IMG/VR virus record: IMGVR_UViG_3300028833_000064
Coordinates: 96,001 to 160,000 of that record
Reading direction: 5' to 3' (one strand)
Source of the DNA: a virus
Lineage: Duplodnaviria; Caudoviricetes
DNA length: 64,000 nucleotides
The notes under the pieces were generated by a model. The model saw nothing but the letters and a program-made list of their open reading frames with translations, had not been told where the DNA came from and did no database searches. Position numbers and translations under genes: made by a program. The number at the start of each line of letters is the position of its first letter. Positions within the stretch are counted from its first letter, which is position 1. Positions 24,501 through 57,947 of the stretch are shown here, piece by piece.

Positions 24501-27500
24501 AATTCTTGAAATATTCCATACACTGCAAATATCCATTCCAATATGATATTTCACCATGTGAGTTCGGATATTCTTTTTCGAGTTTTCCAACATGTTGTTT
24601 ATATAATTCCAAGAGTCTTTCTATCTCTTTTTTTACTTTGTCTATTTTCATAATCCTTCAATATATTCTTTTATAGAATAAAATCCTTTCTCACCATATC
24701 CACATTTTACATAACTTTCATCAATTTTATCAATATATCTCAATAGTTCGTTCTTACTTACCATCTTATCAGAAGTGTCTGGAATAGAACTCTTTTTCAA
24801 ATGCCTTTTAATATTTTTTCCCATATTTAAGTGTTTATAATTAATGAAACTGAAACAAGTACCGTCATCATCATCAAAATTGACCAGACTATAAATGTTA
24901 GAACCCAAGTAGCATTATGCAATTTCGACCATCTCTTTTTAGAAATTTTGCATATAATTAGGTGAATTATTGAAAACAATATGAACAGAAACAACTCAAA
25001 TACTATTATTTTCAATATATTGTCTAACATTTCCATTAGAAAAACAAATCGTCAAAAAGGTCTTCAAAAAAATCAAAAACCGGTGTTAGTATGATGGCGA
25101 TTACACTTCCAAGAATACCCGTGACGATTGCCTCAAATATTTGTTCACTACTCATAGATATTACTCATTGGTGGATACTCGTAGTTTCCCTGTTCCGAAA
25201 TGGGTATTTTTTCATTTTGGCAATAATAGAAACCATCACGAATTTCATTAATGTATGGTAAACCATCCCTAATATTACGTTTTGCTTCGGTAAGTGTTCT
25301 CATGCTGTCACCAACTTTAAATTTTGGAATTTCTTTGTCGATGAATAAAATCAATCTAGACAAAATTTCTTCTGAGTCCGAGTAAGTCTTACGTGATTCG
25401 TTGTACAACTCAACCACTTTATTTCGTATAGTTTCTCTAATGTCCATAATATAATGTTTTTACTTCAAATCGAATCCAAAATTTGCTCCAGCAATATAGG
25501 CTTGTTCTATTTCCTTTCTCCACATACTTCTCAATTCCATTGTGTCCAACCGATGGTATAATTCACTTTCTATATTGAAAGAATAAACACCGGCTTGCAT
25601 TTTCAATCCTTCGTCAAAACCTTTATGTATACCACCATTTTCGTCGGTTATAACAATATCATTCTTCGTCATTGTTGATTGGTTCTAATATATACCATTT
25701 GTCTGAAAGATTTCCATTTATTTTAACAGATTGCTTTTTATGGTTTTTTCCATATTCTATTACAGCACTTGAAGTTTGTGCATTTATAATAAAATCAGTA
25801 ATAGAAGAATATGTCAAATCAAACGGAAGTTCCATAAACCTCTCACCAATTTTTATGGCTTTATAGTTACCATCAACCGGTTCCAATGGAAATTGAAAAC
25901 GAAGATTCCCAATTATTATCTGGACTTTTTTTACCTCCACCGGCGGTTCTTTGGTGTTTTTTCTTTTTAACGACCACATAGAACTTTTATTTTCTTATTT
26001 TAGAAATTATCTTTAAAATAAATTTGTAAACCGGATATAGAATTATTATTATTATCGAACCAAACCAAACAATAGCAAAGAATAATGATACAGCTATAAT
26101 TAAATCCCCATTAAAATCCGTACATTTGGCCATAAGAATTATAGATGTAACAAAAATGAAGAAAAACCCAGTAAGATAAATTATCCAATACACACTCATA
26201 TTTATATAATTTTATTAACAAGCTACCTCATATAAACCTATTTTATTTTGAAGCTTACTGAAATCTCTTTCTAGTTCTTTACTTTTATCTTTTATATTAT
26301 TTACAATCTGGTTTACTTCATCGAATTTCTCAGACGTTGATTCTTTCATCAAGAAACAAAGACCTTTTTCAATAAGTTCAATATACGGACCACAGAAAGT
26401 GTCTTGGACAAGGAATTTTCCATAAATGTCGTGATATGAGTGAGTATACCCCCAATGATAGTTGCATCCGATACACAATGTGTCGATACCGGTGGATGTC
26501 TTCGTAAACTTGACCATTTCTATACGGTCATTCATATCAAGGTCAAAGAAGACACGACCATCGTATTTTTCGGCAAGTTCGGGTGTAATGTCGATTTCAG
26601 TTTTCAATATCTCATCTGTTTCTTCCATAATGGTTTCTTTTATATTATAAAGATAACAAAAAATCACTCGTTTTTCATTTTTTCATCTTTAAAAATAACA
26701 AATATAATAGTGAAAAAATACAATTACAAAAAATATAAGAAAAAAATATAAAATAGTTTATATTATTTTATTCAAAATACGACCTTATTGAATAAGTATT
26801 ACTATTGTTCATACCTAATCAATTCTTTTTTATTACTATCCCATTTATATCCCGCTTCATGTATTTTTCGAAATAAGAGGTCATATTGTTCCTTTGTTGC
26901 AGGAAAAACACTACTAAGTTCACCAAAATGGGATAACATGTGGTAAGTACTTTTTAGTGTAAGTTCTTCATTTGCATCAATACCAGCATAATAGTAAGCA
27001 AGTCCATTATTATATCGGTTTTTATCATATATAAACGGATTGCCTTTTTTAGTTGCAAGCACATCACCATTTTTGGCATCTTTAATTGACCAAAGGTGAC
27101 AGTCATTTTCCTTATCAAAACCAATGGAATACCGTATTCCGTTATTATACGAAATTACTTCATACCAAGACTCACACACCTCTATGATTTTGTAGATGCC
27201 CACACCATTCTGTACAACCCAGTCACCTACCTTGAATTTACAAATAGGTTTCTGTTCGTCTTGCTTTTCAAGATGTTTGAAAAGTTGTTTATCCAACAAA
27301 ATATCAACCCCATTATCTCTTGCACACATTCCCCAAATATGACCATTATATTCAAATGATATTCCACTATATGGATTTGTTTTTTCATCTTGTTTTTCAA
27401 GCCAATATATTAGGTGACTCTTTGGAATAGTATTAACGTAGTTATGGTCTGGGGAGCAATGCAAAAGTACTGCAACCTTTAAGGCATCAATAATCTTACT

Positions 27501-37468: not shown

Positions 37469-37485
37469 ATATTATTTTTATTTTG

Positions 37486-37558
37486 TGACACCGGTGGGAC
37501 TCGAACCCACGACCCCAGCATTAAAAGTGCCGTGCTCTACCTACTGAGCTACGGTGTC
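37486..37558 (-). tRNA. tRNA-Lys(TTT)
   Basis: Cloverleaf, loop CTTTTAA. Confidence 0.92.
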
Positions 37559-38128: not shown

Positions 38129-38267
38129 CAGAAGTGGGAGGATTCGAACCACCATCTACGGTTTTGTGGTTAAATATCAATCTCTTGATAGATAACCTCG
38201 AATTAAAGGCTCTCACAGGACCTCACCCTGTATGGAGACCGTTATTCTACCATTGAACTACACTCCT
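38129..38267 (-). tRNA. tRNA-Trp(CCA) with a 68-nt anticodon-loop insertion
   Basis: ACGGT-CTCCA-[38232..38165]-AA-ACCGT, G73. Confidence 0.8.
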
Positions 38268-38547: not shown

Positions 38548-39132
38548 TTATTTTGTAATCTTCTTTCTAAAAAATCTCTTCGATTCTTTATTTAGAGAAC
38601 CAAAATTTTCTGTTAAACTATGACAATTTGGACATAATAATTCCAAGTTTTCTATCAAATTGTTTGTACAATCACCATCTTTATGATGAATCTCAAGAGG
38701 AACTGTGTTTGAATATTCATTCATCTCACCCCAACCACATTTTTCACAATGATTGTTGTGTAATTCCATCATATATCTTTTAATAAATTTTGGAATTTGA
38801 CCAACACCAGATTGAAAGTTTTCACCATTCAACCACCTTTTAACTCTCTCTTTATATTGATATTCACTTTGACAAACATTTGAACAAAATTTTTCACCTC
38901 TATTCAACTCTTTACCACAATTCAAACAATATCTTTTTTTACAATTGCCTTTATTGAAGGTTTCCTTTTCATTTATCTTTCGTCTTGTTTCAAGTTCAAT
39001 ACCAAGTTTCTTTGCAATCTTTTTGATATTGTTACCAGAACAACCATATATTCTTCCAATTTCGGAATAAGATTTCTTTTGAAATTGTATCAAATCTACG
39101 AGAGTATCTTTTTCATCGTCCCATTTACTCAT
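38548..39132 (-). CDS. HNH homing endonuclease with N-terminal HTH and zinc finger
   Basis: CEKCG...LEIHHKDG...NLELLCPNCH. Confidence 0.9.
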   Translation of the reverse strand: MSKWDDEKDTLVDLIQFQKKSYSEIGRIYGCSGNNIKKIAKKLGIELETRRKINEKETFNKGNCKKRYCLNCGKELNRGEKFCSNVCQSEYQYKERVKRWLNGENFQSGVGQIPKFIKRYMMELHNNHCEKCGWGEMNEYSNTVPLEIHHKDGDCTNNLIENLELLCPNCHSLTENFGSLNKESKRFFRKKITK

Positions 39133-39454: not shown

Positions 39455-39576
39455 AGCAGACGACAGGAGTCGAACCTGTAAAAGACTGTTTTTGAAAATT
39501 GCTGTTTTATTCTTTATCAGTCTTTACCAAGAATACTTCTACTGACAGTTGTGTTTACCAATTCCACCACGTCTGC
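39455..39576 (-). ncRNA. Leu(CAA)-like tRNA carrying a CAGCAA module
   Basis: Leu-type D arm, ACTGT/ACAGT stem, insert TATTCTT..AAGAATA-AAACAGCAA, then TTCAAAA; no long variable arm. Confidence 0.7.
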
Positions 39577-41070: not shown

Positions 41071-41192
41071 TCGGGAGGGCAGGACTCGAACCTACGACCA
41101 CGGCTACCCAAAAGCTATTAGAAAACGTTGCTGTTTGATTCTTTATCAAGAATCTATCATTTACGTGCTCTAACCAACTGAGCTACCTCCCG
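41071..41192 (-). tRNA. tRNA-Pro(TGG) with a 48-nt CAGCAA module at 28/29
   Basis: Removing 41116-41163 restores CGGCT-TTTGGGT-AGCCG. Confidence 0.85.
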
Positions 41193-41296: not shown

Positions 41297-41364
41297 GTGA
41301 AATGTGATGGGACTTGAACCCATGACCTCCCCTCGGCGCTCTAACCACTGAGCTACACAATCAC
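41297..41364 (-). ncRNA. anticodon-armless tRNA mimic
   Basis: Perfect D and T arms joined by GCCGAGGGGAGGTC. Confidence 0.7.
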
Positions 41365-41590: not shown

Positions 41591-41597
41591 ATGAAAA

Positions 41598-41688
41598 TTG
41601 AGTTGTTTAAGGTCTAACTCAAGACTAACGACCGGGGCGATTGTCATCGATTCCACCATCCGATTTTATATGACATCGGAAAACGTTA
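41598..41688 (-). repeat. structured direct repeat, copy A
   Basis: Shares both ends with 41812-41910. Confidence 0.8.
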
Positions 41689-41689
41689 G

Positions 41690-41808
41690 CGGAGAGAGTG
41701 GGACTCGAACCCACGACTACGGTCGTGACAGGACATTGAAAACATTGCTGTATGATTCTTTTTCAAGAATACTCTATTTACGTGTTCTACCAACTGAACT
41801 ATCTCTCC
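41690..41808 (-). tRNA. tRNA-Asp(GTC) with a 46-nt CAGCAA module at 28/29
   Basis: Removing 41735-41780 restores CGGTC-CTGTCAC-GACCG; G73. Confidence 0.85.
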
Positions 41809-41811
41809 GTT

Positions 41812-41910
41812 TTGAGTTGTTTAAAGTCCAACCCAAACGACTAGGGCTTGCCGGTTTGAATCCGACGAGCAGTTCCACCATCCGATTTTATCCGACATCG
41901 GAAAACGTTA
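41812..41910 (-). repeat. structured direct repeat, copy B
   Basis: Shares both ends with 41598-41688. Confidence 0.8.
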
Positions 41911-41973
41911 ACAAGAATCCATAGAATACAAAATTAAAAGTTTTGTCCTGATAATATTGCTGTACGATTCTTT
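41911..41973 (-). ncRNA. free-standing CAGCAA-module RNA enclosing a Lys-type anticodon stem-loop
   Basis: AAAGAATC-GTACAGCAA...ACAAAA-CTTTTAA-TTTTGT...GATTCTTGT. Confidence 0.75.
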
Positions 41974-41975
41974 AG

Positions 41976-42050
41976 TGGGGAATGAGGGACTCGAACCCCC
42001 GACTTTCTGAATGTAAGTCAGATACTCTGAACCGACTGAGTTAATTCCCC
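41976..42050 (-). tRNA. tRNA-Val(TAC)
   Basis: Loop CTTACAT. Confidence 0.9.
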
Positions 42051-42060
42051 GACATCTTAG

Positions 42061-42134
42061 TGGACACAGGTGGGAATCGAACCCACGACTACCTGTTTGC
42101 AAAACAGGAGTTCTACCAACTGAACTACTGGCCC
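42061..42134 (-). tRNA. tRNA-Ala(TGC)
   Basis: Loop TTTGCAA, 1-nt acceptor bulge. Confidence 0.85.
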
Positions 42135-42147
42135 AAATTAATATCAG

Positions 42148-42232
42148 TGCCCAAGACAGGACTTGAACCTGCACTCCCTAAACGGGAACCAGCCCCTCAA
42201 GCTGGTGTGTCTACCAATTCCACCACCTGGGC
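42148..42232 (-). tRNA. tRNA-Leu(GAG)
   Basis: Loop TTGAGGG, variable arm. Confidence 0.9.
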
Positions 42233-42248
42233 ATATTGCTTTCATTTG

Positions 42249-42320
42249 TTGTCCTATCAGGTTTCGAACCTAAAACTTCAGAGCCAGAATCTGACGTGTT
42301 ACCTATTATACCATAGGACA
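42249..42320 (-). tRNA. tRNA-Gln(CTG)
   Basis: Loop TTCTGGC. Confidence 0.88.
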
Positions 42321-42433
42321 ATTTTACAAAACCTAACCAAACCTTGATTAATGTCGTGAGCTTTGATTATACACACACGTCCGATTTCCACGGATATTTA
42401 CACTCTTAACCAGTTTGGTACCGGTTTTGTATG

Positions 42434-42504
42434 TTGTCCTACTTGGACTCGAACCCAGAATTCTTCATCCAAAATGAAGCGTGTTACCGTTACACCATAG
42501 GACA
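42434..42504 (-). tRNA. tRNA-Gln(TTG)
   Basis: Loop TTTTGGA. Confidence 0.88.
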
Positions 42505-42517
42505 ATGTTATCTCAAA

Positions 42518-42554
42518 TAAAAAATCTCACACTTTCGAAAGAATGTGTGAGATG
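42518..42554 (-). terminator. intrinsic terminator inside the tRNA array
   Basis: ATCTCACAC/GTGTGAGAT hairpin plus TTTTTT. Confidence 0.7.
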
Positions 42555-42741
42555 TTGGATATATGTTGAGATTAAAATGTGTTTCTAAAAAATCTTACAA
42601 ATGATACAAACAAATCACACAACTATGGACACAAATAGGATAATCGCCATCTGATAAAACCAGTAGACGAGTCCTGTTTTAAATCCCTTATGTTGTTTAT
42701 TTGTATTCATATCTTCGTTATTTATGTAAGTTTCTTTTCTA

Positions 42742-43278
42742 TTATTTATGTAAATTAATTTCGTATGGTTTTATTGAGCGTTTAACTCTTGCACCGCTTC
42801 CATACATAAGACTATCTGCAAGTGTATTTCCGACTTCTGGAAAACCATAACGTCTTTTGTTGTTTAACTGGTCAATATCTGGTTTAAGTTCCTTTATTTG
42901 TATAACTACGGAATACACAACCACTTTACTATTTGGATAACTCAACTCTCCGAAAGTTTTTGCAGAATCTGGATACACAGAAAGATATACATATCCACAT
43001 TCAGACTGAAAACTTTTTTTCCTTTTTAGACTTGTTGTCAAAATACCCTTATCCATTATAGGATTATTTTCACTTGTACCATGATAAAGTCTTATATAGT
43101 CTTCCTTGTGTCTTCTCAACCATCTGTTAAATTCATCAACAAGTTTTTCGTTATATTCACCATTGAATGAAGTGAAGAACTTAGAAGTTTCCTCATCATC
43201 TAAGACATCGTATGTCTTTGGTTCTCTATAACTACCATAGTATAATTCATTAATAAACTCATCAAACTTTTTAATCAT
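42742..43278 (-). CDS. ADP-ribosyltransferase-fold protein
   Basis: LYHGT...GI...GYVYLS...A..F. Confidence 0.6.
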   Translation of the reverse strand: MIKKFDEFINELYYGSYREPKTYDVLDDEETSKFFTSFNGEYNEKLVDEFNRWLRRHKEDYIRLYHGTSENNPIMDKGILTTSLKRKKSFQSECGYVYLSVYPDSAKTFGELSYPNSKVVVYSVVIQIKELKPDIDQLNNKRRYGFPEVGNTLADSLMYGSGARVKRSIKPYEINLHK

Positions 43279-43312
43279 ATTTCTGTTTGCTTTATTTATT
43301 TATGAATTTTTG

Positions 43313-43386
43313 TACTCCGGACGGGACTCGAACCCGTAATCTCCACCGTGAAAGGGTGGTGTCCTAACCAATTAGACGACCGGAGC
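43313..43386 (-). tRNA. tRNA-Glu(TTC)
   Basis: Loop CTTTCAC. Confidence 0.9.
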
Positions 43387-43453
43387 ATAGTTGTACCGAT
43401 ATCGCTCGATACGGGCGGGTGAAAAATCACCATCTTGCCAGGTCGGGTTTTTG

Positions 43454-43526
43454 TCGGGTAAAGAGGACTCGAACCTCCGACCCCTTGGTCCCAAACCAAG
43501 TGCTCTACCAACTGAGCTACTACCCG
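43454..43526 (-). tRNA. tRNA-Pro(TGG)
   Basis: Loop TTTGGGA. Confidence 0.92.
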
Positions 43527-44046
43527 ATTATTACTAAAGTGTGTTGTGAATGCACTTATAGTCTAACACATAACCTATTTCAGTGTATTCCAAAGCGAAT
43601 ATCTTTTTCAAATGCCGATAACCTCTCCCCACTATACTGCACATAAACGTATCAAGGGTTATTTAACACTGTGCTGTGTTGAGGTATCAAACACTATCAA
43701 GGACTAACCATTTGTGTGTTTTTCTTCACACCAACATCACTTTAGGGAAACATTCCTCTAACTATTCTTTCCCGTTCTCGGTCGCTTCCAATTCCGATAT
43801 TAGGTAGTTGTCTTACATCACCTGAACATCCGGTCGACAACGGGGCGAGCATAAATTTTCCGGATATCTTTTCCAAACTTTCATTGTTTATAGGAACAAC
43901 ATTTGGGTTTCGGGTTTCACTTATTCAGGCTCCGATTGAGTAATAATAGAGCGTGAACGTGAACATTTCATGTATATAATACTATAATTTCTCTGCCTAT
44001 AACACCTCGGATGAAAATTCCGAGCCCTATTCCTTATAGTATTTTG

Positions 44047-44119
44047 TGGACCCACTGGGAATCGAACCCAGACTTAAGGCTTGCAAAGCCCTCGTGCTTG
44101 CCGTTATCACTATAGGCCC
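44047..44119 (-). tRNA. tRNA-Ala(TGC)
   Basis: Loop TTTGCAA, G3.U70. Confidence 0.88.
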
Positions 44120-44185
44120 ATATAGAAAGACTTTTTGACACAAATTTCTCAAATCTGACTAAGAGAAGTAACAATGTTTGCATAC

Positions 44186-44345
44186 CAAGATTCTTTAACC
44201 CCCAAAGTGGGATTTTTCAAAATTTGTGCCGGACGGTCTTATCTTCGTCCAAGGGGTACAAACCGGAGAAAATTACCGGAGAAATACCGAGGTTAATTGA
44301 AACGTTTACTTTATGTATTTGTAAATCGTTGCTGTTTGAATCTTT
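44186..44345 (-). ncRNA. free-standing CAGCAA-module RNA, long cargo
   Basis: AAAGATTC-AAACAGCAA...GAATCTTG (compensatory stem). Confidence 0.7.
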
Positions 44346-44359
44346 AACAAACAATATTG

Positions 44360-44431
44360 AGCCGATGGAGGGATTTGAACCCCCGACCTGATGCTTACAA
44401 GGCAACTGCTCTACCCCTGAGCTACATCGGC
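44360..44431 (-). tRNA. tRNA-Thr(TGT)
   Basis: Loop CTTGTAA. Confidence 0.88.
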
Positions 44432-44435
44432 ATTT

Positions 44436-44497
44436 ACAAGGTTCACTTTTATGAGTCGAACATAATATAACCAAAAATAGTTGCTGTATGAACCTTT
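44436..44497 (-). ncRNA. free-standing CAGCAA-module RNA enclosing a T-arm
   Basis: AAAGGTTC-ATACAGCAA...TTATG-TTCGACT-CATAA...GAACCTTGT. Confidence 0.75.
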
Positions 44498-44549
44498 AAT
44501 TTAGTGAGCAATGAGCAGTCTCCCACTCAAAACCCAATTTCCTCTTTTG

Positions 44550-45325
44550 GAAAGCCTGAGAACTTAGGCAAAGTTGTCACCATTACACGATAGTTGGACA
44601 TCGTTGTTCACAGTATGTATTTCTACATCCTAGGTGACATGTGCTTCAGTTTTGTGAAAACTGACAAACTCTTACTGCTTGATATCGTAGATTTCCGTTC
44701 TCCACCGACCGTCCTGCATAAGACTTCTGAAGATGCCTCCTCATTGTTCGATGATTACTTGTACTTTCTTGTCTTCAACCTTGCAAGTCTCCGACACCCC
44801 CGTGTTACAGAGGGACAAGCACATTTTCTACCAAACAGTGTCGTGCTCTTTTGCTTTTTTTCAAAAATAAAAAATAATTGAATCTTAGCCTTTTTGATAA
44901 CTGTTTTTAGAAAGATGTGGCACGACTTTGGTCATTCCTACCTTTTGAGTAAGACCCAACCAACACCTTTCTATGTTTCATCGTTCCCCAACGACTCCAC
45001 ATTCTCCGTTTCGTTCCATACAATTTCTCATACAGAACTAATCCTTTGTAATACTTGCAATTGATAGGGAAATCTTTCACAAGTACCTGCTAAAGACATC
45101 TATTGTACTTTCATACTCAAACCAGGTTTTACCCGATTGTCATCTGCTTCATCCTCATCATTTGACATTGGATTTCCCACAGACAACGTGCCCTAGCACT
45201 TTTCAACAGATTGCATCTTTCGATACAACGCCACATCCCGTTTATCTCGGATATGACTTTATCCCATTGCTGGATTATCCTTTGGTCAAGTCCGAAGACT
45301 TAACACTGGTTCTGAAAGCGAACCT
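44550..45325 (-). ncRNA. candidate large structured ncRNA (GOLLD-sized)
   Basis: About 780 nt between tRNAs with no credible ORF and many hairpins; ends approximate. Confidence 0.45.
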
Positions 45326-45331
45326 TTTTTG

Positions 45332-45404
45332 TAGCGGGGGGTGGATTCGAACCACCGACCTTCGGGTTATGGGCCCGACGAGCTGGCCTCTGCTCCACCC
45401 CGCT
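45332..45404 (-). tRNA. initiator-type tRNA-Met(CAT)
   Basis: GGG/CCC in anticodon stem, loop CCCATAA. Confidence 0.85.
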
Positions 45405-45418
45405 ATGTTTCATTTTAG

Positions 45419-45491
45419 CGGGAACAGTAGGGTTCGAACCTACGACCATCACCTTAACAGGGTGCCGCTCTACCAGCTGAGCTATGTTCCC
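45419..45491 (-). tRNA. tRNA-Asn(GTT)
   Basis: Loop CTGTTAA. Confidence 0.88.
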
Positions 45492-45517
45492 AATTACCAA
45501 TACTTGTTACCAAACTA

Positions 45518-45597
45518 GCGGTACAAGAGGACTCGAACCTCTGGTCTCCAACGTCCGTAAGGTCGTTGACGTTCTTCCCCATTAAACTATGCACCTG
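45518..45597 (-). ncRNA. tRNA-like RNA with an extended anticodon arm
   Basis: TCAACG-A-CC-TTAC-GG-A-CGTTGG instead of a 5-bp stem and 7-nt loop. Confidence 0.6.
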
Positions 45598-45655
45598 GAC
45601 TTCCTATCATCATTGTGACTTGACCGGTATTCACAACTACTTTCAAAAATCTTAG

Positions 45656-45728
45656 CGGTCCATACGGGACTCGAACCCGTGTCGCCGCCGTGACAGGGCG
45701 GTATGCTAAACCACTACACCAATGGACC
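45656..45728 (-). tRNA. tRNA-Asp(GTC)
   Basis: Loop CTGTCAC. Confidence 0.9.
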
Positions 45729-45764
45729 ATTTCTATTTATGAAAAAGTTTTTTTAGGAAATTTT

Positions 45765-45837
45765 ACAAGGTTCACTTTTTTATCTTGGCATCTGAAATAT
45801 GGTTCGGATTAGATTTTTTATTGCTGTATGAACCTTT
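45765..45837 (-). ncRNA. free-standing CAGCAA-module RNA
   Basis: AAAGGTTC-ATACAGCAA...GAACCTTGT. Confidence 0.75.
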
Positions 45838-45845
45838 AAATGTGT

Positions 45846-45913
45846 ACAAGAATCTTTTCCTGAGTCATTCAAAAACACTGAATTTCATAGAAATTGTTGC
45901 TGTATGATTCTTT
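45846..45913 (-). ncRNA. free-standing CAGCAA-module RNA
   Basis: AAAGAATC-ATACAGCAA...GATTCTTGT. Confidence 0.75.
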
Positions 45914-46006
45914 ATCTACACGATTTCCTTATTTATTATTTTTCCCTAACAATATAAATATAACAAAAAATTCAAGAAATTTTAATTTTTTTGAATTTTT
46001 TTTTTG

Positions 46007-46298: not shown

Positions 46299-46417
46299 TC
46301 GGGTGGAGGGGAATCGAACCCACTGTCACGGCTACCAAAAAGCAAAGAACGTATTGCTGCAAGATTCTTTCACAAGAATCAAATAAATACGTGTCCTAAC
46401 CACTAGACGACCACCCA
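46299..46417 (-). tRNA. tRNA-Gln(TTG) with a 46-nt CAGCAA module at 28/29
   Basis: Removing 46344-46389 restores CGGCT-TTTTGGT-AGCCG. Confidence 0.83.
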
Positions 46418-46889: not shown

Positions 46890-47225
46890 ACCATCGTTTT
46901 GGTACGATGGTGAGAACCTGCCCTTAAAGACATTGGTCTAAACTACCACCGATTAGGCGGCAGCGAGCATCACCATGTTATTGGTGTTGTTATTGTAGTT
47001 GCCATTTACTGACAAGATGAGTCTCTACACCTTTCATACTTATACAGTATCAAATCCAAGTCATCCCCGTGTTACCTTGGCGGTTCGGTCTCGTATAGAC
47101 CGCCCAAGGTTGAGTGTTCTGCTATTTGTATCGGACTTACAATTGATACCGAAGTCAGGGCGAACACTGAATAAACTGGTGGAGATGTTGGGGTTCGAAC
47201 CCAAGTCTACCATACTTTCCTAAAA
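46890..47225 (-). ncRNA. ssrA: circularly permuted (two-piece) tmRNA
   Basis: T arm plus CATCTCC-A-CCA (ends 47177) lies upstream of 5' GGGGATG (47068); tag GNYNNNTNNMVMLAAA* at 47003-46953; outer ends approximate. Confidence 0.88.
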
Positions 47226-47245
47226 GTTTCAAACGAAACCCATTT

Positions 47246-48767: not shown

Positions 48768-49607
48768 TCAGATGGTGTAACGGCAATTCCGGAATGAAGT
48801 TTCTTCGTTAAAACCGTGCTTTCTTATTTTCAGGAGATTCTCACTCCATTCTTTTGATTTACGGCCTTGTATAATTTCGTGAAGAAGACCCTCTTCTTTT
48901 TCGAGTTTCTCCCTTTTTTTCTCTCTCACGGACTTCTTGTAGGCGGAATCACGCTCATATCTTGCCCGTGAGTATTCGGGAGTTTTCTTTCCGAACTCTA
49001 TAACTTCACCATCAATGACGGGATGAGCCTTTCGACATAGTTCGACAGGTAAAGGATAGAAAGACACCATTTTCGAAATTTTTTCGTACTCTTGTGGCGT
49101 TATCGTCTCGGTGAAAAGACGATGTAGTCTGTCCTTTCCAATCTTTTTTTCTAGACTCAAGATTTCAGTCTTGGTGAAGTTCTCCACATTAAAGGTATAT
49201 CCTGTCACAACTCTATTGTCAATGAAAGCTTTTTGCACTTTTTTGTGAAACATTGAGACTCTCTCATTTTTGGTGATATTTCCGACTTCATCAACAACAT
49301 ATTCGTTGTATTTTGAATGTGGATGTGTAATAGGATAAAGTTCTGAGTGTATCAAGAAATAACCGTCATAACCATATCCGAATTTTTCACGGATGTTATG
49401 GTTGAGGGTTCGTCGACACTCACCGTAGTTTTCTCCGACATGTTTTTCCCAAAATCTGTTGATATAGGAGAAAACATTACTTCTACGACACCACTTCTTC
49501 TCATAAAAGTCATAGAAATCACCATTTTTTTTACCGCTGTAACAGAATGTGTCCTTTGTGCAGGATGCATGTTGTACGGATTCTTCGTTTTTTTTAATTT
49601 TTTTCAT
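48768..49607 (-). CDS. basic hypothetical protein
   Basis: 279-aa ORF inside the RNA island. Confidence 0.65.
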   Translation of the reverse strand: MKKIKKNEESVQHASCTKDTFCYSGKKNGDFYDFYEKKWCRRSNVFSYINRFWEKHVGENYGECRRTLNHNIREKFGYGYDGYFLIHSELYPITHPHSKYNEYVVDEVGNITKNERVSMFHKKVQKAFIDNRVVTGYTFNVENFTKTEILSLEKKIGKDRLHRLFTETITPQEYEKISKMVSFYPLPVELCRKAHPVIDGEVIEFGKKTPEYSRARYERDSAYKKSVREKKREKLEKEEGLLHEIIQGRKSKEWSENLLKIRKHGFNEETSFRNCRYTI

Positions 49608-51383: not shown

Positions 51384-52820
51384 TCAACTTTCATTTTTCT
51401 TAGGTTTTAATACGTTCTTATATGCCTGCTTCATCAACTTCAAACAAGACTCACGAGAGATGACAGGGTTACTGTATACACTGCTCATAACCTGCTTCAG
51501 AATTTCCTTGATTATCGGACCTGGTTCGACACCGAGTTCATTGATGACATCATCTCCATTGATGGGGAGTTTGTATCCGAACATCTTCGAGTTCTCTGCA
51601 CACTCGACGAACTTTGCATACTGACCCTTGACACAATGACTCTTCTCGTGAGCGAGGTTGTCCGCCTCGATGACTTGACAAGTTCTCAAGAAACGTTCCT
51701 CCGTACCACAGATATACATAAACCTGTTGATGGATTTCTCCTTCATCTTACAACAGTCGTTCCCGAATCCCTTTGCTCTCATATGGTTTCTGATGATGAA
51801 ACACACTTCGTCAATCGTATGGTTGTCGAACTTCAAACGTTGGAGTATTCTCTTGGCGACATCACTACCGACGAACTCGTGGTCGTAGAAATGAACTCTA
51901 CCGTGTTCATCAACAGTTCTACACTCTATCTTGCCGATGTCATGCAAAAGTGCCGCAAGACGACAAACCAAATCCGGTTCAAACATGTTGCAATGGTTTT
52001 CAAGAACGGCAAGAGTATGTACCCACACATCACCGAAATGATAGGCATTTTGACCAAGACCTATGGTCTTTTCAAGTTCTGGGATGACATACTTCATTGC
52101 ACCGATATCGTTGATGAGCATTATTCCATGATGAGCATTTTTAGTCATCATGATTTTGCAGAGTTCGTCATTGATTCTCTCAACAGTGATGATGGAGAGT
52201 CTGTCGGCGTTTCTCTTCATGGACTCGTAGGTCTTCTCGGAAATCTCGAAACCAAGTCTGGTACGGAAACGGATAACCCTCAAAATTCTCAAAGGGTCGT
52301 CGATAAAAGTCTGGTCAACCTTATCGTCGGAGACCATCTCCATCGGAACTCTCAAAACTTTGTCGTGAATGTCTTGGATACCACAACCTGTTAAGTCCTC
52401 CACCTCACCTTTCGAAATGTTGTAGTAGAGGGCGTTGATGGTCAAATCACGTCTCGTTGCATCCTCCATAATGGGTGCAAACACGGTCTGTGGGTTACGG
52501 CTGCCAGCATCGGTGTATTTCTCACCACGAGTCATAACACATTCAATTTCGTCATTTGGAAACTTCTTGAAATGGAACATTGCAGTACCGTAGGTTTCAT
52601 ATATGACAACCTTTCCGGTCAACCCGTTCTGCTCACAGAAGTTTGCAAAACGAACACCACCTTGTGGGAGGTCAATAACGAGGTCAATGTCCTTAATTTC
52701 CCTACCCATCACCAAATCACGGACGGAGCCACCGACGGCATATACGTGCCCCTCGAACTCACTCCCCTTCGTGATTTCACCAATATATGATGTTATTTCT
52801 AAAAATTTTTCTTTTGTCAT
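51384..52820 (-). CDS. cca: CCA-adding tRNA nucleotidyltransferase with HD domain
   Basis: VGGSVRD, DID, RRDLTINA, DDPLRILR, LLHDIGK. Confidence 0.93.
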   Translation of the reverse strand: MTKEKFLEITSYIGEITKGSEFEGHVYAVGGSVRDLVMGREIKDIDLVIDLPQGGVRFANFCEQNGLTGKVVIYETYGTAMFHFKKFPNDEIECVMTRGEKYTDAGSRNPQTVFAPIMEDATRRDLTINALYYNISKGEVEDLTGCGIQDIHDKVLRVPMEMVSDDKVDQTFIDDPLRILRVIRFRTRLGFEISEKTYESMKRNADRLSIITVERINDELCKIMMTKNAHHGIMLINDIGAMKYVIPELEKTIGLGQNAYHFGDVWVHTLAVLENHCNMFEPDLVCRLAALLHDIGKIECRTVDEHGRVHFYDHEFVGSDVAKRILQRLKFDNHTIDEVCFIIRNHMRAKGFGNDCCKMKEKSINRFMYICGTEERFLRTCQVIEADNLAHEKSHCVKGQYAKFVECAENSKMFGYKLPINGDDVINELGVEPGPIIKEILKQVMSSVYSNPVISRESCLKLMKQAYKNVLKPKKNES

Positions 52821-53714: not shown

Positions 53715-54392
53715 TTAATGTTTCCCATTTTCCGTCCATAATTGTGCTTTCTTCCAGTTCCTTGTCCAGTGCTCATCAGTCTGAACGTGATTTGCTCTTA
53801 CGTATTTACAAACATAATTTGGAAATTCCATAATCGGAAACGAGTCTGTAATCCTCATCACAACACCCTCACGACCGCTTTTACAAGCATAGTATGATGT
53901 GTGTTCCATCAATTCGTCGATGATTTCCTTCACTTCACCCTCTTCTCTCAACACACACCTCTCCAATTCCGGAACGTGTGGGACACAGAGTATCTTTGCA
54001 AACTCCTTAACCTCATCCCAACTGTACCACAGATTACCGTCATTGACAGCGAACATATGCCAATAGTCTGACAGACAATCGTAATGGATAGAGTGCTCAC
54101 CGTAAAGGTTTTCACCATAGACTGTTTCATTTGGACCGATATACTGATTGATTTTCCAATACAGTCCGTCCGACGGGTCCCAAAGATTTCTCGACCAAGG
54201 TGAACGAGTCGGGGCACCATGTGAACGTGCATAGACATCATAGTGTGTCATTGCTGTATTCTCCCCATCGAGTTTCTCCGTGAAGACTACTTCTTTTCCT
54301 TTATAGAAATCGAACCACCCATCTTGAAGTCTCTTGTCGTCCGATGTTGCACCTGGTGACCAAGGGAGATGATATGTTCTTGGATATTTCAT
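53715..54392 (-). CDS. ATP-dependent RNA ligase family protein
   Basis: KYPRTYHLPWSPG, EKLDGEN, GENL, EGVV, KYVR. Confidence 0.88.
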   Translation of the reverse strand: MKYPRTYHLPWSPGATSDDKRLQDGWFDFYKGKEVVFTEKLDGENTAMTHYDVYARSHGAPTRSPWSRNLWDPSDGLYWKINQYIGPNETVYGENLYGEHSIHYDCLSDYWHMFAVNDGNLWYSWDEVKEFAKILCVPHVPELERCVLREEGEVKEIIDELMEHTSYYACKSGREGVVMRITDSFPIMEFPNYVCKYVRANHVQTDEHWTRNWKKAQLWTENGKH

Positions 54393-56369: not shown

Positions 56370-57947
56370 TTAAGAATCTTCATCATCAACCCCGTTGGCG
56401 GCATAGTATTCATCCATTTCGGCATAGGTGAGTTGAGTTTCCATATCGACCTCACCAGCATCATACTGCTTTCTTTCTCTTATTCTGAATGCTTCTGTCT
56501 TCAGTTTAAAAGCTTCTGCCTTTTCGTCATTTTCTATACGGATGACGACACCTTCACGTGGAACATATTTATTACACATTGGTTCAAGTGATTCCATACC
56601 GAATCTTTGTTTGTCGTTTTCAAGTCGTTCAAGCAACGATTCCTGCCAGTGATGTTTTGTGTCGAGGTCTGGATAAAGGTCTCCGAGACGACCATGATAA
56701 AGGATTGTAATTGGCTTTATCTTACCTTTCAACTCGGGATGTTCATTCAAAGTATTTATTGTCCATTGATAAACATCCTGTACATTCCAATCAACATGGT
56801 TTCCTTCGGCATCCGTTTCGGTTATTCTGTAAGGCATCAAGATGTTCTCACCGACCTTACAACCATAGTCGTAACCCTTTTGAATCATACTTGTGGAACC
56901 AGTAACATAACCGACAATCTCACCATACAATGTCATACCTTCCTTCAAAAGTGGATAGATAATCTTTCCGTACTCAGACCAGATATCAACCTTATAGAAA
57001 CCTTGACCTACGGCCTTATTAATGTACTTGTTCTTAATGACGCCTCTCGAAGACGTTATTTCACCATACTCAAGTTCATAATGAGGGAGAAGCATTTCAC
57101 GTCTCTTATGGTCAATAAAACTGAAAAATCTTCTAATGAAGTTCTTTACAATTCTGACTCTCTTTTCGAAAAAATCTTCTGGAAGATACTTCTTGGTAAG
57201 TAGATTACCGGAGATAAAAGACGTTCCGTGTTCCTTGACTGAGATGTCCACAACAGTATCCGGTGTGAATCTCCACAAGTTGTCCTTCAATTGGCTGGTG
57301 TCATAATGGAAAGCAAACTGACCATCTACCATACGGTCGAGTTTCATCATAGTCTTTCCTCTCTTTCGGTCTTTCTTAGAAACTCCTGTCAGATTGTTTT
57401 GACGGTGTTGAACAGGTGGAATGTATGTCTTTATGAAAAGAACACCATCAACAGTGTCAAAATCAAATGGAACAACAATTCCATCTTCATTTGGTTCGAA
57501 ACACTTCTCAAAATCATATTCCAACACCTTTGGATTCCACTTGGCAAGAGAATCGATTGAAAAAAGACATCCTTCAGATGTACAACCACGAAGTTTGACC
57601 ATCTTCACACGTCCATGACGGTTGAAATACCCAACCATCTTCTTCGCTTCGGATTCCTTACCCTCATCAATGAGTTTCTGAACATCCTTGTAATTCTTGT
57701 TGAGATGTCTTTCACTCATTTCAAACTGATTGTTAACCGACAAGAAATCCTTGTTGATGACAGTCTCCATCTTGCAATAGACCATGATGTCACCTTCCTT
57801 TACACTGTCCTTTCCGACAACGACTTGGTATGCACCTCCAATTTTTGTTTTGACGAGAAAATCAGAACCCTCAATTGGAAGCAACTCACCAATCTTTACA
57901 ATTTGAGCACAATACTCAAGCTTAATGTTTTCACTTTTTGTAAACAT
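56370..57947 (-). CDS. RNA ligase with N-terminal OB-like domain (DRB0094-like)
   Basis: KEHGTS, YGEIVG, REGVVIR, FKLK. Confidence 0.8.
   Translation of the reverse strand: MFTKSENIKLEYCAQIVKIGELLPIEGSDFLVKTKIGGAYQVVVGKDSVKEGDIMVYCKMETVINKDFLSVNNQFEMSERHLNKNYKDVQKLIDEGKESEAKKMVGYFNRHGRVKMVKLRGCTSEGCLFSIDSLAKWNPKVLEYDFEKCFEPNEDGIVVPFDFDTVDGVLFIKTYIPPVQHRQNNLTGVSKKDRKRGKTMMKLDRMVDGQFAFHYDTSQLKDNLWRFTPDTVVDISVKEHGTSFISGNLLTKKYLPEDFFEKRVRIVKNFIRRFFSFIDHKRREMLLPHYELEYGEITSSRGVIKNKYINKAVGQGFYKVDIWSEYGKIIYPLLKEGMTLYGEIVGYVTGSTSMIQKGYDYGCKVGENILMPYRITETDAEGNHVDWNVQDVYQWTINTLNEHPELKGKIKPITILYHGRLGDLYPDLDTKHHWQESLLERLENDKQRFGMESLEPMCNKYVPREGVVIRIENDEKAEAFKLKTEAFRIRERKQYDAGEVDMETQLTYAEMDEYYAANGVDDEDS

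What the first reader, a model, noticed from the sequence alone, without database searches (positions are those of the whole stretch)
41911..45913. Free-standing modules display isolated tRNA parts as cargo
Seen: 41911-41973 encloses ACAAAA-CTTTTAA-TTTTGT, whose 7-nt loop is identical to that of tRNA-Lys(TTT) at 37486. 44436-44497 encloses TTATG-TTCGACT-CATAA, a canonical T arm. Established: tRNA-Lys(UUU) is the target of the anticodon nuclease PrrC. Inference: these are decoys for host tRNA-targeting defences. The other three cargos show no clear tRNA part.
Basis: partly seen in the sequence, partly recalled or inferred. Interest (0 to 1): 0.75.

Follow-up and report, generated by a model that had tools for sequence, protein, structure and literature searches.

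The report
Phage Y-RNA-like RNAs showing tRNA parts
The five small "modules" in this phage's tRNA gene cluster are probably partner RNAs of a phage protein shaped like the RNA-binding autoantigen Ro60; they belong to a widespread family I found described nowhere, whose variable middle parts often copy tRNA anticodon or T arms.

Summary
M1 (41911-41973) carries a 6-bp stem with loop CUUUUAA, identical to the anticodon loop of the phage's own tRNA-Lys(UUU). M3 (44436-44497) carries a canonical T arm.

The refutation test fails to refute. In 131 non-redundant homologous cargos, CU-NNN-AA hairpins occur 23 times against 0.97 in shuffles. T arms occur 21 times against 0.23.

The decoy reading misses the main point. 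The shared handle is a covarying 7-bp stem followed by NN-ACAGCAA. It is tightly linked, always on the same strand, to a ~520-aa DUF2828+DUF7788 gene. My model of that protein aligns end to end with Ro60 (Z 23.8). A covariance model of the handle gave 157 hits, all on the gene's strand, in 69 of 80 gene loci.

This phage has the gene 70 kb upstream of the window, with a mini-handle in its own leader.

Best reading: these are Y-RNA-like partner RNAs with tRNA-mimic heads, analogous to YrlA. The handle sequence matches Dictyostelium Class I RNAs. Acting as bait for anticodon nucleases remains possible but untested.

The scan has noted this family before on other DNA, in at least 149 genomes. No binding or expression data exist.

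The parts
41910..41974 (-). M1: free-standing handle RNA. Handle stem 41966-41972 pairs with 41913-41919. The ACAGCAA core is at 41957-41963. The head is an anticodon-arm mimic (Lys UUU, loop CUUUUAA) at 41928-41946. It starts 2 nt after the 3' end of tRNA-Val.
   Evidence: Sequence; fold; covariance model 51.2 bits, E 8e-9; loop identical to tRNA-Lys(UUU).
44186..44345 (-). M2: handle RNA with stem AAGAUUC/GAAUCUU and a long 134-nt head made of several hairpins. No tRNA-like part.
   Evidence: The stem carries compensatory changes relative to M1. An ortholog with an internal deletion is present in the relative phage. The covariance model missed it because of the long insert.
44435..44498 (-). 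M3: handle RNA with stem AAGGUUC/GAACCUU. Its head holds a lone T arm, UUAUG-UUCGACU-CAUAA, at 44449-44465. It ends 6 nt before tRNA-Thr and lies just downstream of a GOLLD-like RNA.
   Evidence: covariance model 45.0 bits. The T arm is unchanged in the relative phage. It is the only short cargo with a T arm among 176.
45764..45838 (-). M4: handle RNA (AAGGUUC/GAACCUU) with a 46-nt head that is not tRNA-like. It lies in tandem with M5.
   Evidence: covariance model 42.8 bits.
45845..45914 (-). M5: handle RNA (AAGAAUC/GAUUCUU) with a 41-nt head. The head is a 5-bp hairpin with the non-canonical 7-nt loop GUGUUUU.
   Evidence: covariance model 45.3 bits.
41071..41192 (-). Context: a full tRNA (Pro UGG) carrying the same handle in closed-hairpin, circularly permuted form (41128-41154). 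The handle sits between tRNA positions 28 and 29.
   Evidence: Rfam tRNA 45.3 bits with a 61-nt insert; sequence; handle located. An intact twin, tRNA-Pro(UGG), lies at 43453-43526.
41690..41808 (-). Context: a full tRNA (Asp GUC) with the closed handle (41744-41770) at position 28/29.
   Evidence: The intact twin tRNA-Asp(GUC) lies at 45655-45728.
46300..46410 (-). Context: a full tRNA (Gln UUG) with the closed handle (46354-46380) at position 28/29.
   Evidence: The intact twin tRNA-Gln(UUG) lies at 42433-42504.
39456..39576 (-). Context: a tRNA-like body (acceptor, D and T arms) whose anticodon region is replaced by a closed handle with a 14-nt loop (39499-39535).

Best explanation
The free-standing modules are genes for small Y-RNA-like RNAs.

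The two ends of each RNA pair into a 7-bp helix. This helix is followed by an unpaired NN-ACAGCAA and flanked by a conserved 5' A and 3' G. Together these form a "handle". I infer that the handle is the binding site of the phage's Ro60-like ring protein (DUF2828+DUF7788, 521 aa, at G000:C1:23419-24975, 70 kb upstream of the window).

The variable middle part is an exchangeable head. In about a third of short family members the head is an anticodon-arm look-alike. In most long members it is a T-arm-containing tRNA-like body. In a permuted form the handle is grafted into a whole tRNA.

I infer that the particle uses these tRNA-shaped heads to engage proteins that recognise tRNA, in the setting of tRNA damage, repair or turnover during infection. 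That could mean holding or trapping anticodon-directed enzymes. It could also mean tethering repair or decay enzymes to the ring, as Y RNA tethers PNPase to Rsr.

The copy of the handle in the protein's own mRNA leader suggests autoregulation.

Shown here: the RNA family, its covarying helix, the enrichment of tRNA parts, the genetic linkage to the protein and the Ro60 fold of the model. Inferred: binding, expression as discrete RNAs, and the biological role.
For: 1. The helix is real. In an IMG/VR scan that left the two central pairs free, 77 of 103 matches were complementary, against 1 in 16 by chance. In gene-first loci, the 7-mer just before ACAGCAA has a perfect complement downstream in 115 of 325 cases. 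Control offsets gave 11 and 8. All 7 pairs show changes on both sides, although these rows were chosen for pairing.

2. Linkage, RNA first. A ~500-aa protein family lies in 36 of the true-module loci and in none of the 26 chance-match loci, always on the same strand. Tandem arrays of 3-8 modules sit beside it.

3. Linkage, protein first. In 80 loci fetched by the protein alone, there were 159 strict modules on the gene strand, 2 on the other strand and 1 in reversed controls. They peak 0-500 nt upstream of the gene. The covariance model gave 157 hits at E<=0.01, all on the gene strand, in 69 of 80 loci.

4. The protein. Pfam reports DUF2828+DUF7788 and PHROG 850 is named 'RNA-binding protein'. 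The AF2 model has pLDDT 86.9. The 13 best Foldseek matches (the only ones with E <= 0.001) are all Ro60/TROVE chains. VIA-align gives Z 23.8 and rmsd 4.0 over 414 residues to Xenopus Ro60. The next fold, vWA alone, has Z about 11. A sequence profile weakly hits Ro60 (E 0.004).

5. This phage. It encodes the protein (48% identity to the protein of locus L036). A mini-handle lies 13 nt before the start codon. That handle uses the same AAGAWTC stem flavour as M1-M5, whereas most other lineages use AAGRCRC.

6. tRNA mimicry is family-wide. Anticodon-type hairpins occur in 37 of 131 cargos against 4.6 in shuffles. CU-NNN-AA occurs 23 times against 0.97. T arms occur 21 times against 0.23. Control loop patterns are not enriched. 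Loops keep isoacceptor detail, for example UUUGGGN for Pro and CUCAUAA for Met. Their stems are 21% GC against 60% in 779 real phage tRNAs, so they are not fresh tRNA copies. Long heads repeat the YrlA plan of T arm, closed acceptor and D arm.

7. Precedent. Ro60 partner RNAs in bacteria and phages mimic tRNA and lie next to the Ro60 gene (PMC4201824, PMC12135203).

8. Context. A CCA-adding enzyme and an RNA ligase flank the array. RNA-ligase-like and Band-7 genes recur beside the Ro60-like gene elsewhere.
Against: - No binding, expression or end-mapping data exist.
- In this phage the five RNAs lie about 110 kb from the protein gene, so local linkage rests on the leader copy and on relatives.
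- The handle does not resemble the known Ro60 sites (GNCGAAN0-1G or GGUCCGA; PMC4201824).
- The Rfam YrlA model does not match the modules.
- Pfam's TROVE model is not among the protein's hits.
- Three of the five cargos here, and about two thirds of short cargos overall, show no tRNA part.
- M1 is destroyed in the closest relative phage.
- The Ro60 match is to a predicted model, not a solved structure.
Confidence: 0.75

Rival explanations
1. The modules are protein-free scaffolds that present isolated tRNA parts as decoys. These soak up or block host anticodon nucleases such as PrrC, which targets Lys UUU.
For: The anticodon loops displayed across the family are canonical and diverse. Lys UUU is the commonest (10 of 64), followed by Ser UGA, Ile GAU, Pro UGG, Asn GUU, Cys GCA and Met CAU. 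From general knowledge, these overlap known targets of anticodon nucleases and VapC toxins. The phage also supplies intact tRNAs of the same species and carries RNA ligases. This reading can coexist with the main explanation as the particle's role.
Against: It does not explain several findings: the strictly conserved ACAGCAA and helix bases, the strand-specific linkage to a Ro60-like gene, the copy in that gene's leader, the many heads without any tRNA part, and the T-arm or whole-tRNA-like heads. M1 is lost in the nearest relative. No nuclease was tested.
Confidence: 0.12
2. The handle is a splicing or processing signal. In tRNAs it would mark a short intron at position 28/29. The free-standing permuted form would then be excised or circularised by a phage endonuclease and ligase, or by self-cleavage.
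For: The handle occurs in both circular permutations. It interrupts three tRNAs at one fixed site after CACG. RNA ligases lie nearby. Lak megaphages were reported to have 'enigmatic' tRNA introns (PMC6784885).
Against: Each interrupted tRNA has an intact twin, so splicing is not needed. Closed-handle tRNA-like RNAs in other phages lack any anticodon arm to restore. No known ribozyme family matches. The Ro60-like gene linkage is unexplained by this view. Circularising a 17-40-nt head is implausible.
Confidence: 0.06
3. The modules are decaying relics of handle-bearing tRNA genes, or simple spacers in the tRNA operon. Their tRNA-like pieces would be leftovers without function.
For: They sit 2-8 nt from neighbouring tRNAs. 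One copy is broken in the relative phage.
Against: Loops stay canonical while stems have drifted to 21% GC. Hundreds of copies keep intact helices through compensatory change. Many have their own TATAAT-like box or form arrays beside the protein gene, away from tRNAs. Orthologous heads are conserved between divergent phages.
Confidence: 0.04

Closest known systems
Ro60 (Rsr, TROVE+vWA) with Y RNAs, especially bacterial and phage YrlA (Rfam RF02553; Chen et al. 2014, PMC4201824; Thermus phage phiLo Ro60 with Yrl1/2, PMC12135203)
   Same: Both have a ring protein with a helical-repeat N-terminal part and a vWA domain. In both, the partner RNAs have 5' and 3' ends that pair into a stem with a conserved unpaired motif. 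The RNAs are encoded beside the protein gene, often several per genome, and their variable part mimics tRNA. Long-headed relatives repeat the YrlA plan of T arm, closed acceptor and D arm.
   Different: Protein sequence identity is only 10-14% and Pfam files the protein as DUF2828+DUF7788, not TROVE. The handle is helix+NN-ACAGCAA rather than GNCGAA or GGUCCGA. Most RNAs are shorter (55-75 nt) and show a bare anticodon arm, which YrlA lacks. The handle also occurs grafted into complete tRNAs and in the protein's own leader. In this phage the RNAs sit in the tRNA array, far from the gene.
Class I RNAs of dictyostelid social amoebae (Aspegren et al. 2004; Kjellin et al. 2021, PMC7919456; search pattern GTTGRCCTTACAGCAA...GTCAACTG in PMC5054030)
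   Same: Both are 42-65-nt RNAs. A 6-7-bp covarying stem joins the two ends. The stem is followed directly by C-NN-ACAGCAA, and the RNA has a G-containing 3' tail. The remainder is variable, and the genes occur in clusters. The sequence motif is the same.
   Different: Class I RNAs are eukaryotic nuclear genes reported as unique to Dictyostelia. Their one known binder is an RRM protein (Rnp1A/CIBP). No Ro60-like partner and no tRNA-like heads have been reported. Whether the likeness reflects common descent was not tested here.
Phage countermeasures to tRNA-cleaving defences (T4 Pnkp/Rnl1 repair of PrrC-cut tRNA-Lys; T5 tRNA that neutralises PARIS, PMC11464382)
   Same: They share the phage tRNA-array setting and the presence of RNA ligases. 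Lys UUU is the most frequently displayed anticodon.
   Different: Those systems use whole functional tRNAs or repair enzymes. No system using isolated anticodon arms on a protein-bound scaffold is described in the papers searched.

Membership tests
Y RNA (Ro60 partner RNA) | Bound by a Ro60/Rsr-type protein | not testable with these tools
   There are no binding data. Only genetic linkage and the leader copy point to binding.
Y RNA (Ro60 partner RNA) | Encoded next to the Ro60-type gene | tested here: met
   In relatives, 69 of 80 gene loci have covariance-model hits, all 157 on the gene strand. In this phage only the leader copy is adjacent; M1-M5 lie about 110 kb away.
Y RNA (Ro60 partner RNA) | 5' and 3' ends pair into a stem that carries a conserved unpaired or bulged protein-binding motif | tested here: met
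   The 7-bp terminal helix covaries and is followed by an invariant unpaired ACAGCAA.
Y RNA (Ro60 partner RNA) | Known Ro60 recognition sequence (GGUCCGA in animals, GNCGAAN0-1G in bacteria) | tested here: not met
   The handle consensus is W-AAGRCRC-NN-ACAGCAA-Y. No CGAA-type motif is present.
YrlA (Rfam RF02553) | Match to the Rfam covariance model at its gathering score | tested here: not met
   No YrlA hit at gathering score. Only hits of 22-23 bits, over ordinary tRNAs, against a cut-off of 69.
YrlA (Rfam RF02553) | tRNA-like domain with T and D arms | tested here: not met
   For the five window RNAs the feature is not met: M1 has only an anticodon arm and M3 only a T arm. It is met in long-headed relatives, where 23 of 37 have a T arm and L031 4551-4673 follows the full plan.
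Ro60/TROVE protein family (the partner protein) | Ring of helical repeats plus a C-terminal vWA domain with a MIDAS motif | tested here: met
   The AF2 model has pLDDT 86.9. Z 23.8 over 414 residues to 1yvp_A, and the 13 best Foldseek matches are all Ro60/TROVE. An invariant D311-x-S313-x-S315 is present.
Ro60/TROVE protein family (the partner protein) | Match to Pfam TROVE (PF05731) | tested here: not met
   hmmscan reports only PF11443 (DUF2828) and PF25043 (DUF7788).
Dictyostelid Class I RNA | Short terminal stem directly followed by the conserved motif (C)NNACAGCAA, length about 60 nt, variable remainder | tested here: met
   Compared with the published pattern GTTGRCCTTACAGCAA...GTCAACTG (PMC5054030) and the published description (PMC7919456). 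Module consensus.
Dictyostelid Class I RNA | Dictyostelid nuclear gene with the DUSE promoter element | tested here: not met
   These are phage genes. They are co-transcribed with tRNAs or preceded by TATAAT-like boxes.
   Only mimicry of the substrate loop is shown.

The most novel reading that the evidence does not exclude
Phages carry a programmable bait library. A Ro60-like ring is loaded with interchangeable handle RNAs, and each RNA displays the anticodon arm of one tRNA species. The particle captures the matching host tRNA-cleaving defence enzyme, or another anticodon-reading enzyme. It then neutralises that enzyme, or hands cut tRNAs to the phage's ligases. The same handle in amoebal Class I RNAs would mean that this kind of particle spans viruses and eukaryotes.
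Probability: 0.2. Interest if true: 0.9.

Novelty: new variant of a known kind. Interest (0 to 1): 0.72.

Why it matters
Ro60 and Y RNAs are conserved from bacteria to humans, yet why bacterial Y RNAs mimic tRNA is still unexplained.

This branch offers hundreds of natural variants in which the tRNA-like head is reduced to a single arm and varied by anticodon. That makes the question open to experiment: which protein reads the head, and does the answer depend on the anticodon?

The work also assigns a likely role to a very large uncharacterised protein family. More than 7,000 sequence clusters matched, and every listed hit is unnamed or called 'hypothetical protein'.

It reinterprets some 'tRNA introns' of large phages as grafted handles. 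It also links the orphan Class I RNAs of Dictyostelium to a candidate protein partner.

If the heads do act against tRNA-targeting defences, this would be a new type of RNA-based counter-defence.

Tried and rejected
- **Intron or splicing signal.** This was my first working idea. I set it aside because the interrupted tRNAs have intact twins and because of the protein linkage.
- **Known ribozymes or other Rfam families.** Nothing matched the modules at gathering score or at E<=5.
- **CRISPR-repeat-like, type III antitoxin, retron, IS200/605-end, promoter or terminator readings.** I considered these from the sequence alone. I dropped them because the topology does not fit: the stem pairs across the cargo, the cargos differ, and no reverse transcriptase, Cas or TnpA gene is linked.
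- **Close phage relatives in GenBank.** blastn found only tRNA matches.
- **Bacterial genomes.** A single-protein query found no relative. Host range and prophage occurrence remain open.
- **phmmer of the protein against PDB sequences.** Nothing meaningful. Only the profile search and the fold search reached Ro60.
- **ORFs embedded in the tRNA array** (42742-43278 and 48768-49607). No informative family matched.
- **Literature.** No paper in the library describes DUF2828 function or this RNA family in phages.

Full report
**Setting.** The window is part of a 185,388-bp, 36% GC phage contig. It holds a very large tRNA array on the minus strand: 35 ARAGORN tRNA calls, plus further tRNA-like genes found only by Rfam, and a permuted tmRNA. 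Everything discussed here is read on the minus strand.

**The observation.** Five free-standing copies of one motif lie between 41910 and 45914. Each reads A, then a 7-nt strand S (AAGAAUC, AAGGUUC or AAGAUUC), two variable bases, ACAGCAA, Y, a variable "cargo" of 35-134 nt, the exact complement of S, and then G.

- M1 (41911-41973) holds a 6-bp stem with loop CUUUUAA. This is the same loop as the phage's tRNA-Lys(UUU) at 37485-37558, although the stems differ.
- M3 (44436-44497) holds UUAUG-UUCGACU-CAUAA, a textbook T arm.
- The other three cargos fold into hairpins that are not tRNA-like.

**The motif is a widespread RNA family.** I scanned IMG/VR with a pattern that left the two central stem pairs free. 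In 77 of 103 matches the free positions were complementary, against 1 in 16 by chance, and many different stem sequences were used.

A finder that accepts any 7-mer stem gave 212 free-standing and 6 closed-hairpin copies in those loci. The copies lie on the strand of nearby tRNAs, often 1-8 nt from one. Others have a TATAAT-like box upstream. No Rfam family matches them.

I used 131 non-redundant homologous cargos and dinucleotide-preserving shuffles.

| Pattern | Observed | Shuffle mean (max) |
|---|---|---|
| 5-bp stem + 7-nt loop YU-NNN-R-N | 37 | 4.6 (10) |
| 4-bp stem + CU-NNN-AA | 23 | 0.97 |
| T arm (TTCRANY loop) | 21 | 0.23 |

Two control loop patterns were not enriched.

Across 251 unique cargos there are 64 anticodon-type hairpins. 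Their loops reproduce isoacceptor detail:

- CUUUUAA, 10 times
- CUUGAAA, 8 times
- CUGAUAA, 6 times
- UUUGGGN, 7 times
- CUGUUAA, CUGCAAA and CUCAUAA, 4 times each

Their stems are 21% GC, against 60% in 779 real tRNAs from the same loci. They are therefore maintained mimics rather than recent tRNA fragments.

Cargo length separates two classes. Of 176 short cargos (50 nt or less), 32% have an anticodon-type hairpin, and only one has a T arm, namely M3's ortholog. Of 37 long cargos (70 nt or more), 62% have a T arm, and some follow the full YrlA plan. Cargos in homologues are thus clearly more tRNA-like than shuffled sequence.

I clustered the ORFs around the modules. One ~500-aa family was present in 36 true-module loci and in none of the 26 chance-match loci. 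It was always on the same strand, often with 3-8 modules in tandem beside it.

Pfam calls it DUF2828+DUF7788, and PHROG 850 is labelled "RNA-binding protein".

I then reversed the sampling and fetched 80 viral loci by the protein alone, out of at least 547.

- Strict modules numbered 159 on the gene strand, 2 on the other strand and 1 in reversed-sequence controls.
- They peak in the 500 nt upstream of the gene.
- ACAGCAA itself occurs 325 times on the gene strand against 37 on the other.
- The preceding 7-mer has a downstream complement in 115 cases, against 11 and 8 at control offsets.
- A covariance model built from 47 modules gave 157 hits at E<=0.01. All were on the gene strand, in 69 of 80 loci.

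**The protein folds like Ro60.** An AlphaFold model built from a 22-sequence alignment has pLDDT 86.9. It has an all-helical N-terminal part and a vWA domain with an invariant DxSxS motif.

The 13 best Foldseek matches, the only ones with E <= 0.001, are all Ro60/TROVE chains from frog, human, Deinococcus and Thermus phage phiLo. VIA-align gives Z 23.8 and rmsd 4.0 over 414 residues to Xenopus Ro60. The next unrelated fold, vWA alone, scores about Z 11. A sequence profile reaches Ro60 only weakly (E 0.004), and Pfam TROVE is not matched. This is therefore a distant branch.

**This phage.** It encodes the protein at G000:C1:23419-24975, with 48% identity to the protein of locus L036. The gene lies next to a gene for SmpB, the protein partner of tmRNA.

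Thirteen nucleotides before the start codon lies a minimal handle: AAAGAUUC-UUGACAGCAAA-13 nt-GAAUCUU-GUAA. The covariance model finds this copy although it was not in the training set (24.6 bits, E 0.006).

Its stem flavour, AAGAWTC, is that of M1-M5. Most other lineages use AAGRCRC. This fits co-variation of handle and protein, and autoregulation through the leader.

In this phage both protein partners, SmpB and the Ro60-like protein, sit together, while their presumed RNAs (tmRNA and the handle RNAs) sit in the tRNA array.

**Permuted form.** The same handle, closed by a short loop, interrupts three complete tRNAs between positions 28 and 29: Pro UGG, Asp GUC and Gln UUG. Each has an intact twin elsewhere in the array. 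The handle also replaces the anticodon region of a fourth tRNA-like gene.

Similar chimeras lie just upstream of the Ro60-like gene in other phages, some with no anticodon arm at all. I read these as handle-tagged tRNAs rather than intron-bearing precursors. Only RNA data can settle this.

**Interpretation.** Ro60 partner RNAs are known to have a terminal stem with a conserved protein-binding motif, a variable effector part, a position next to the Ro60 gene and, in bacteria and phages, tRNA mimicry (PMC4201824, PMC12135203). The present family has all of these in form. It differs in the sequence of the handle, in size, and in displaying bare anticodon arms of many specificities.

The most likely account is therefore a Y-RNA-like particle whose heads engage tRNA-recognising proteins. 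The anticodon-nuclease decoy idea is one possible role. It is compatible with three findings:

- Lys UUU is the commonest head.
- RNA ligases and a CCA-adding enzyme lie beside the array.
- RNA-ligase-like and Band-7 genes recur beside the Ro60-like gene elsewhere.

Nothing tested here speaks for the decoy role specifically. M1 itself is replaced by a TnpB-like remnant in the closest relative.

**Comparison with published RNAs.** The handle equals that of the Class I RNAs of Dictyostelium. The published search pattern is GTTGRCCTTACAGCAA ... GTCAACTG (PMC5054030). The described features are a 6-bp covarying terminal stem, an adjacent conserved 11-nt motif, a length of about 60 nt and a variable remainder (PMC7919456). 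Those RNAs were reported as unique to dictyostelids and have no known Ro60-like partner. This lead came from earlier notes of this scan, and I checked it against the two papers.

**Earlier scan notes.** The scan has described the same protein-RNA pairing on other DNA, with 170 notes in at least 149 genomes. I looked at those notes after reaching the same reading from this window.

**Limits.**
- There are no expression or binding data.
- The protein fold is a prediction.
- The modules used for the pair counts were selected for perfect pairing, so one search is descriptive. The unbiased tests are.
- The host is unknown.

Noticed in passing
window 44553-44971 (-): GOLLD-like RNA: 85 bits, E 9e-22, matching the full length of the model but below Rfam's gathering score of 150. 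It lies inside the tRNA array, immediately upstream of M3.
   Followed up: no
window 41299-41362 (-): A 64-nt tRNA-like gene with acceptor, D and T arms. Only 4 nt stand where the anticodon arm should be (Rfam tRNA 46.9 bits).
   Followed up: no
window 41595-41689 and 41812-41910 (-): Two copies of a ~95-nt element that begins AACGUUUUCCGAUGUC..AUAAAAUCGGAUGGUGGAA. Each directly follows an RNA gene (M1 and the Asp chimera) and precedes a tRNA. It matches no Rfam family and is conserved in the relative phage.
   Followed up: partly
window 46953-47239 (-) and G000:C1 about 25345-25842 (L102:3427-3924, -): The phage has its own permuted tmRNA (68 bits) in the tRNA array. It also has an SmpB gene (Pfam E 1e-51) next to the Ro60-like gene, 110 kb away.
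   Followed up: partly
window 38129-38267 (-): A tRNA (Rfam 50.8 bits) with a ~65-nt insertion of a different kind. It has no ACAGCAA handle.
   Followed up: no
L001 about 6300-6560 (-), IMGVR_UViG_3300021387_001157: In the closest relative phage, the 5' half of M1 and tRNA-Val are replaced. The replacing fragment encodes a TnpB-like C-terminus (CPECG..DRDINAAKNI).
   Followed up: partly
window 39499-39535 (-): The 14-nt loop of this closed handle contains AAAGACUG. This is complementary to CAGUCUUU 20 nt downstream, so a pseudoknot or alternative fold is possible.
   Followed up: no
window 38548-39132, 51384-52820, 53715-54392, 56370-57947 (all -): An HNH endonuclease gene lies inside the array. 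Just beyond the array lie a CCA-adding enzyme, an RNA ligase (PF09414) and a protein with a PHA02142-type OB fold.
   Followed up: partly
loci L103-L182 (neighbours of the Ro60-like gene in other phages): Recurrent neighbours: a Band-7/SPFH protein (24 of 80 loci), a class-V aminotransferase or cysteine-desulfurase-like protein (16), an adenylosuccinate-synthetase-like protein (12) and an RNA-ligase-like protein (11).
   Followed up: partly
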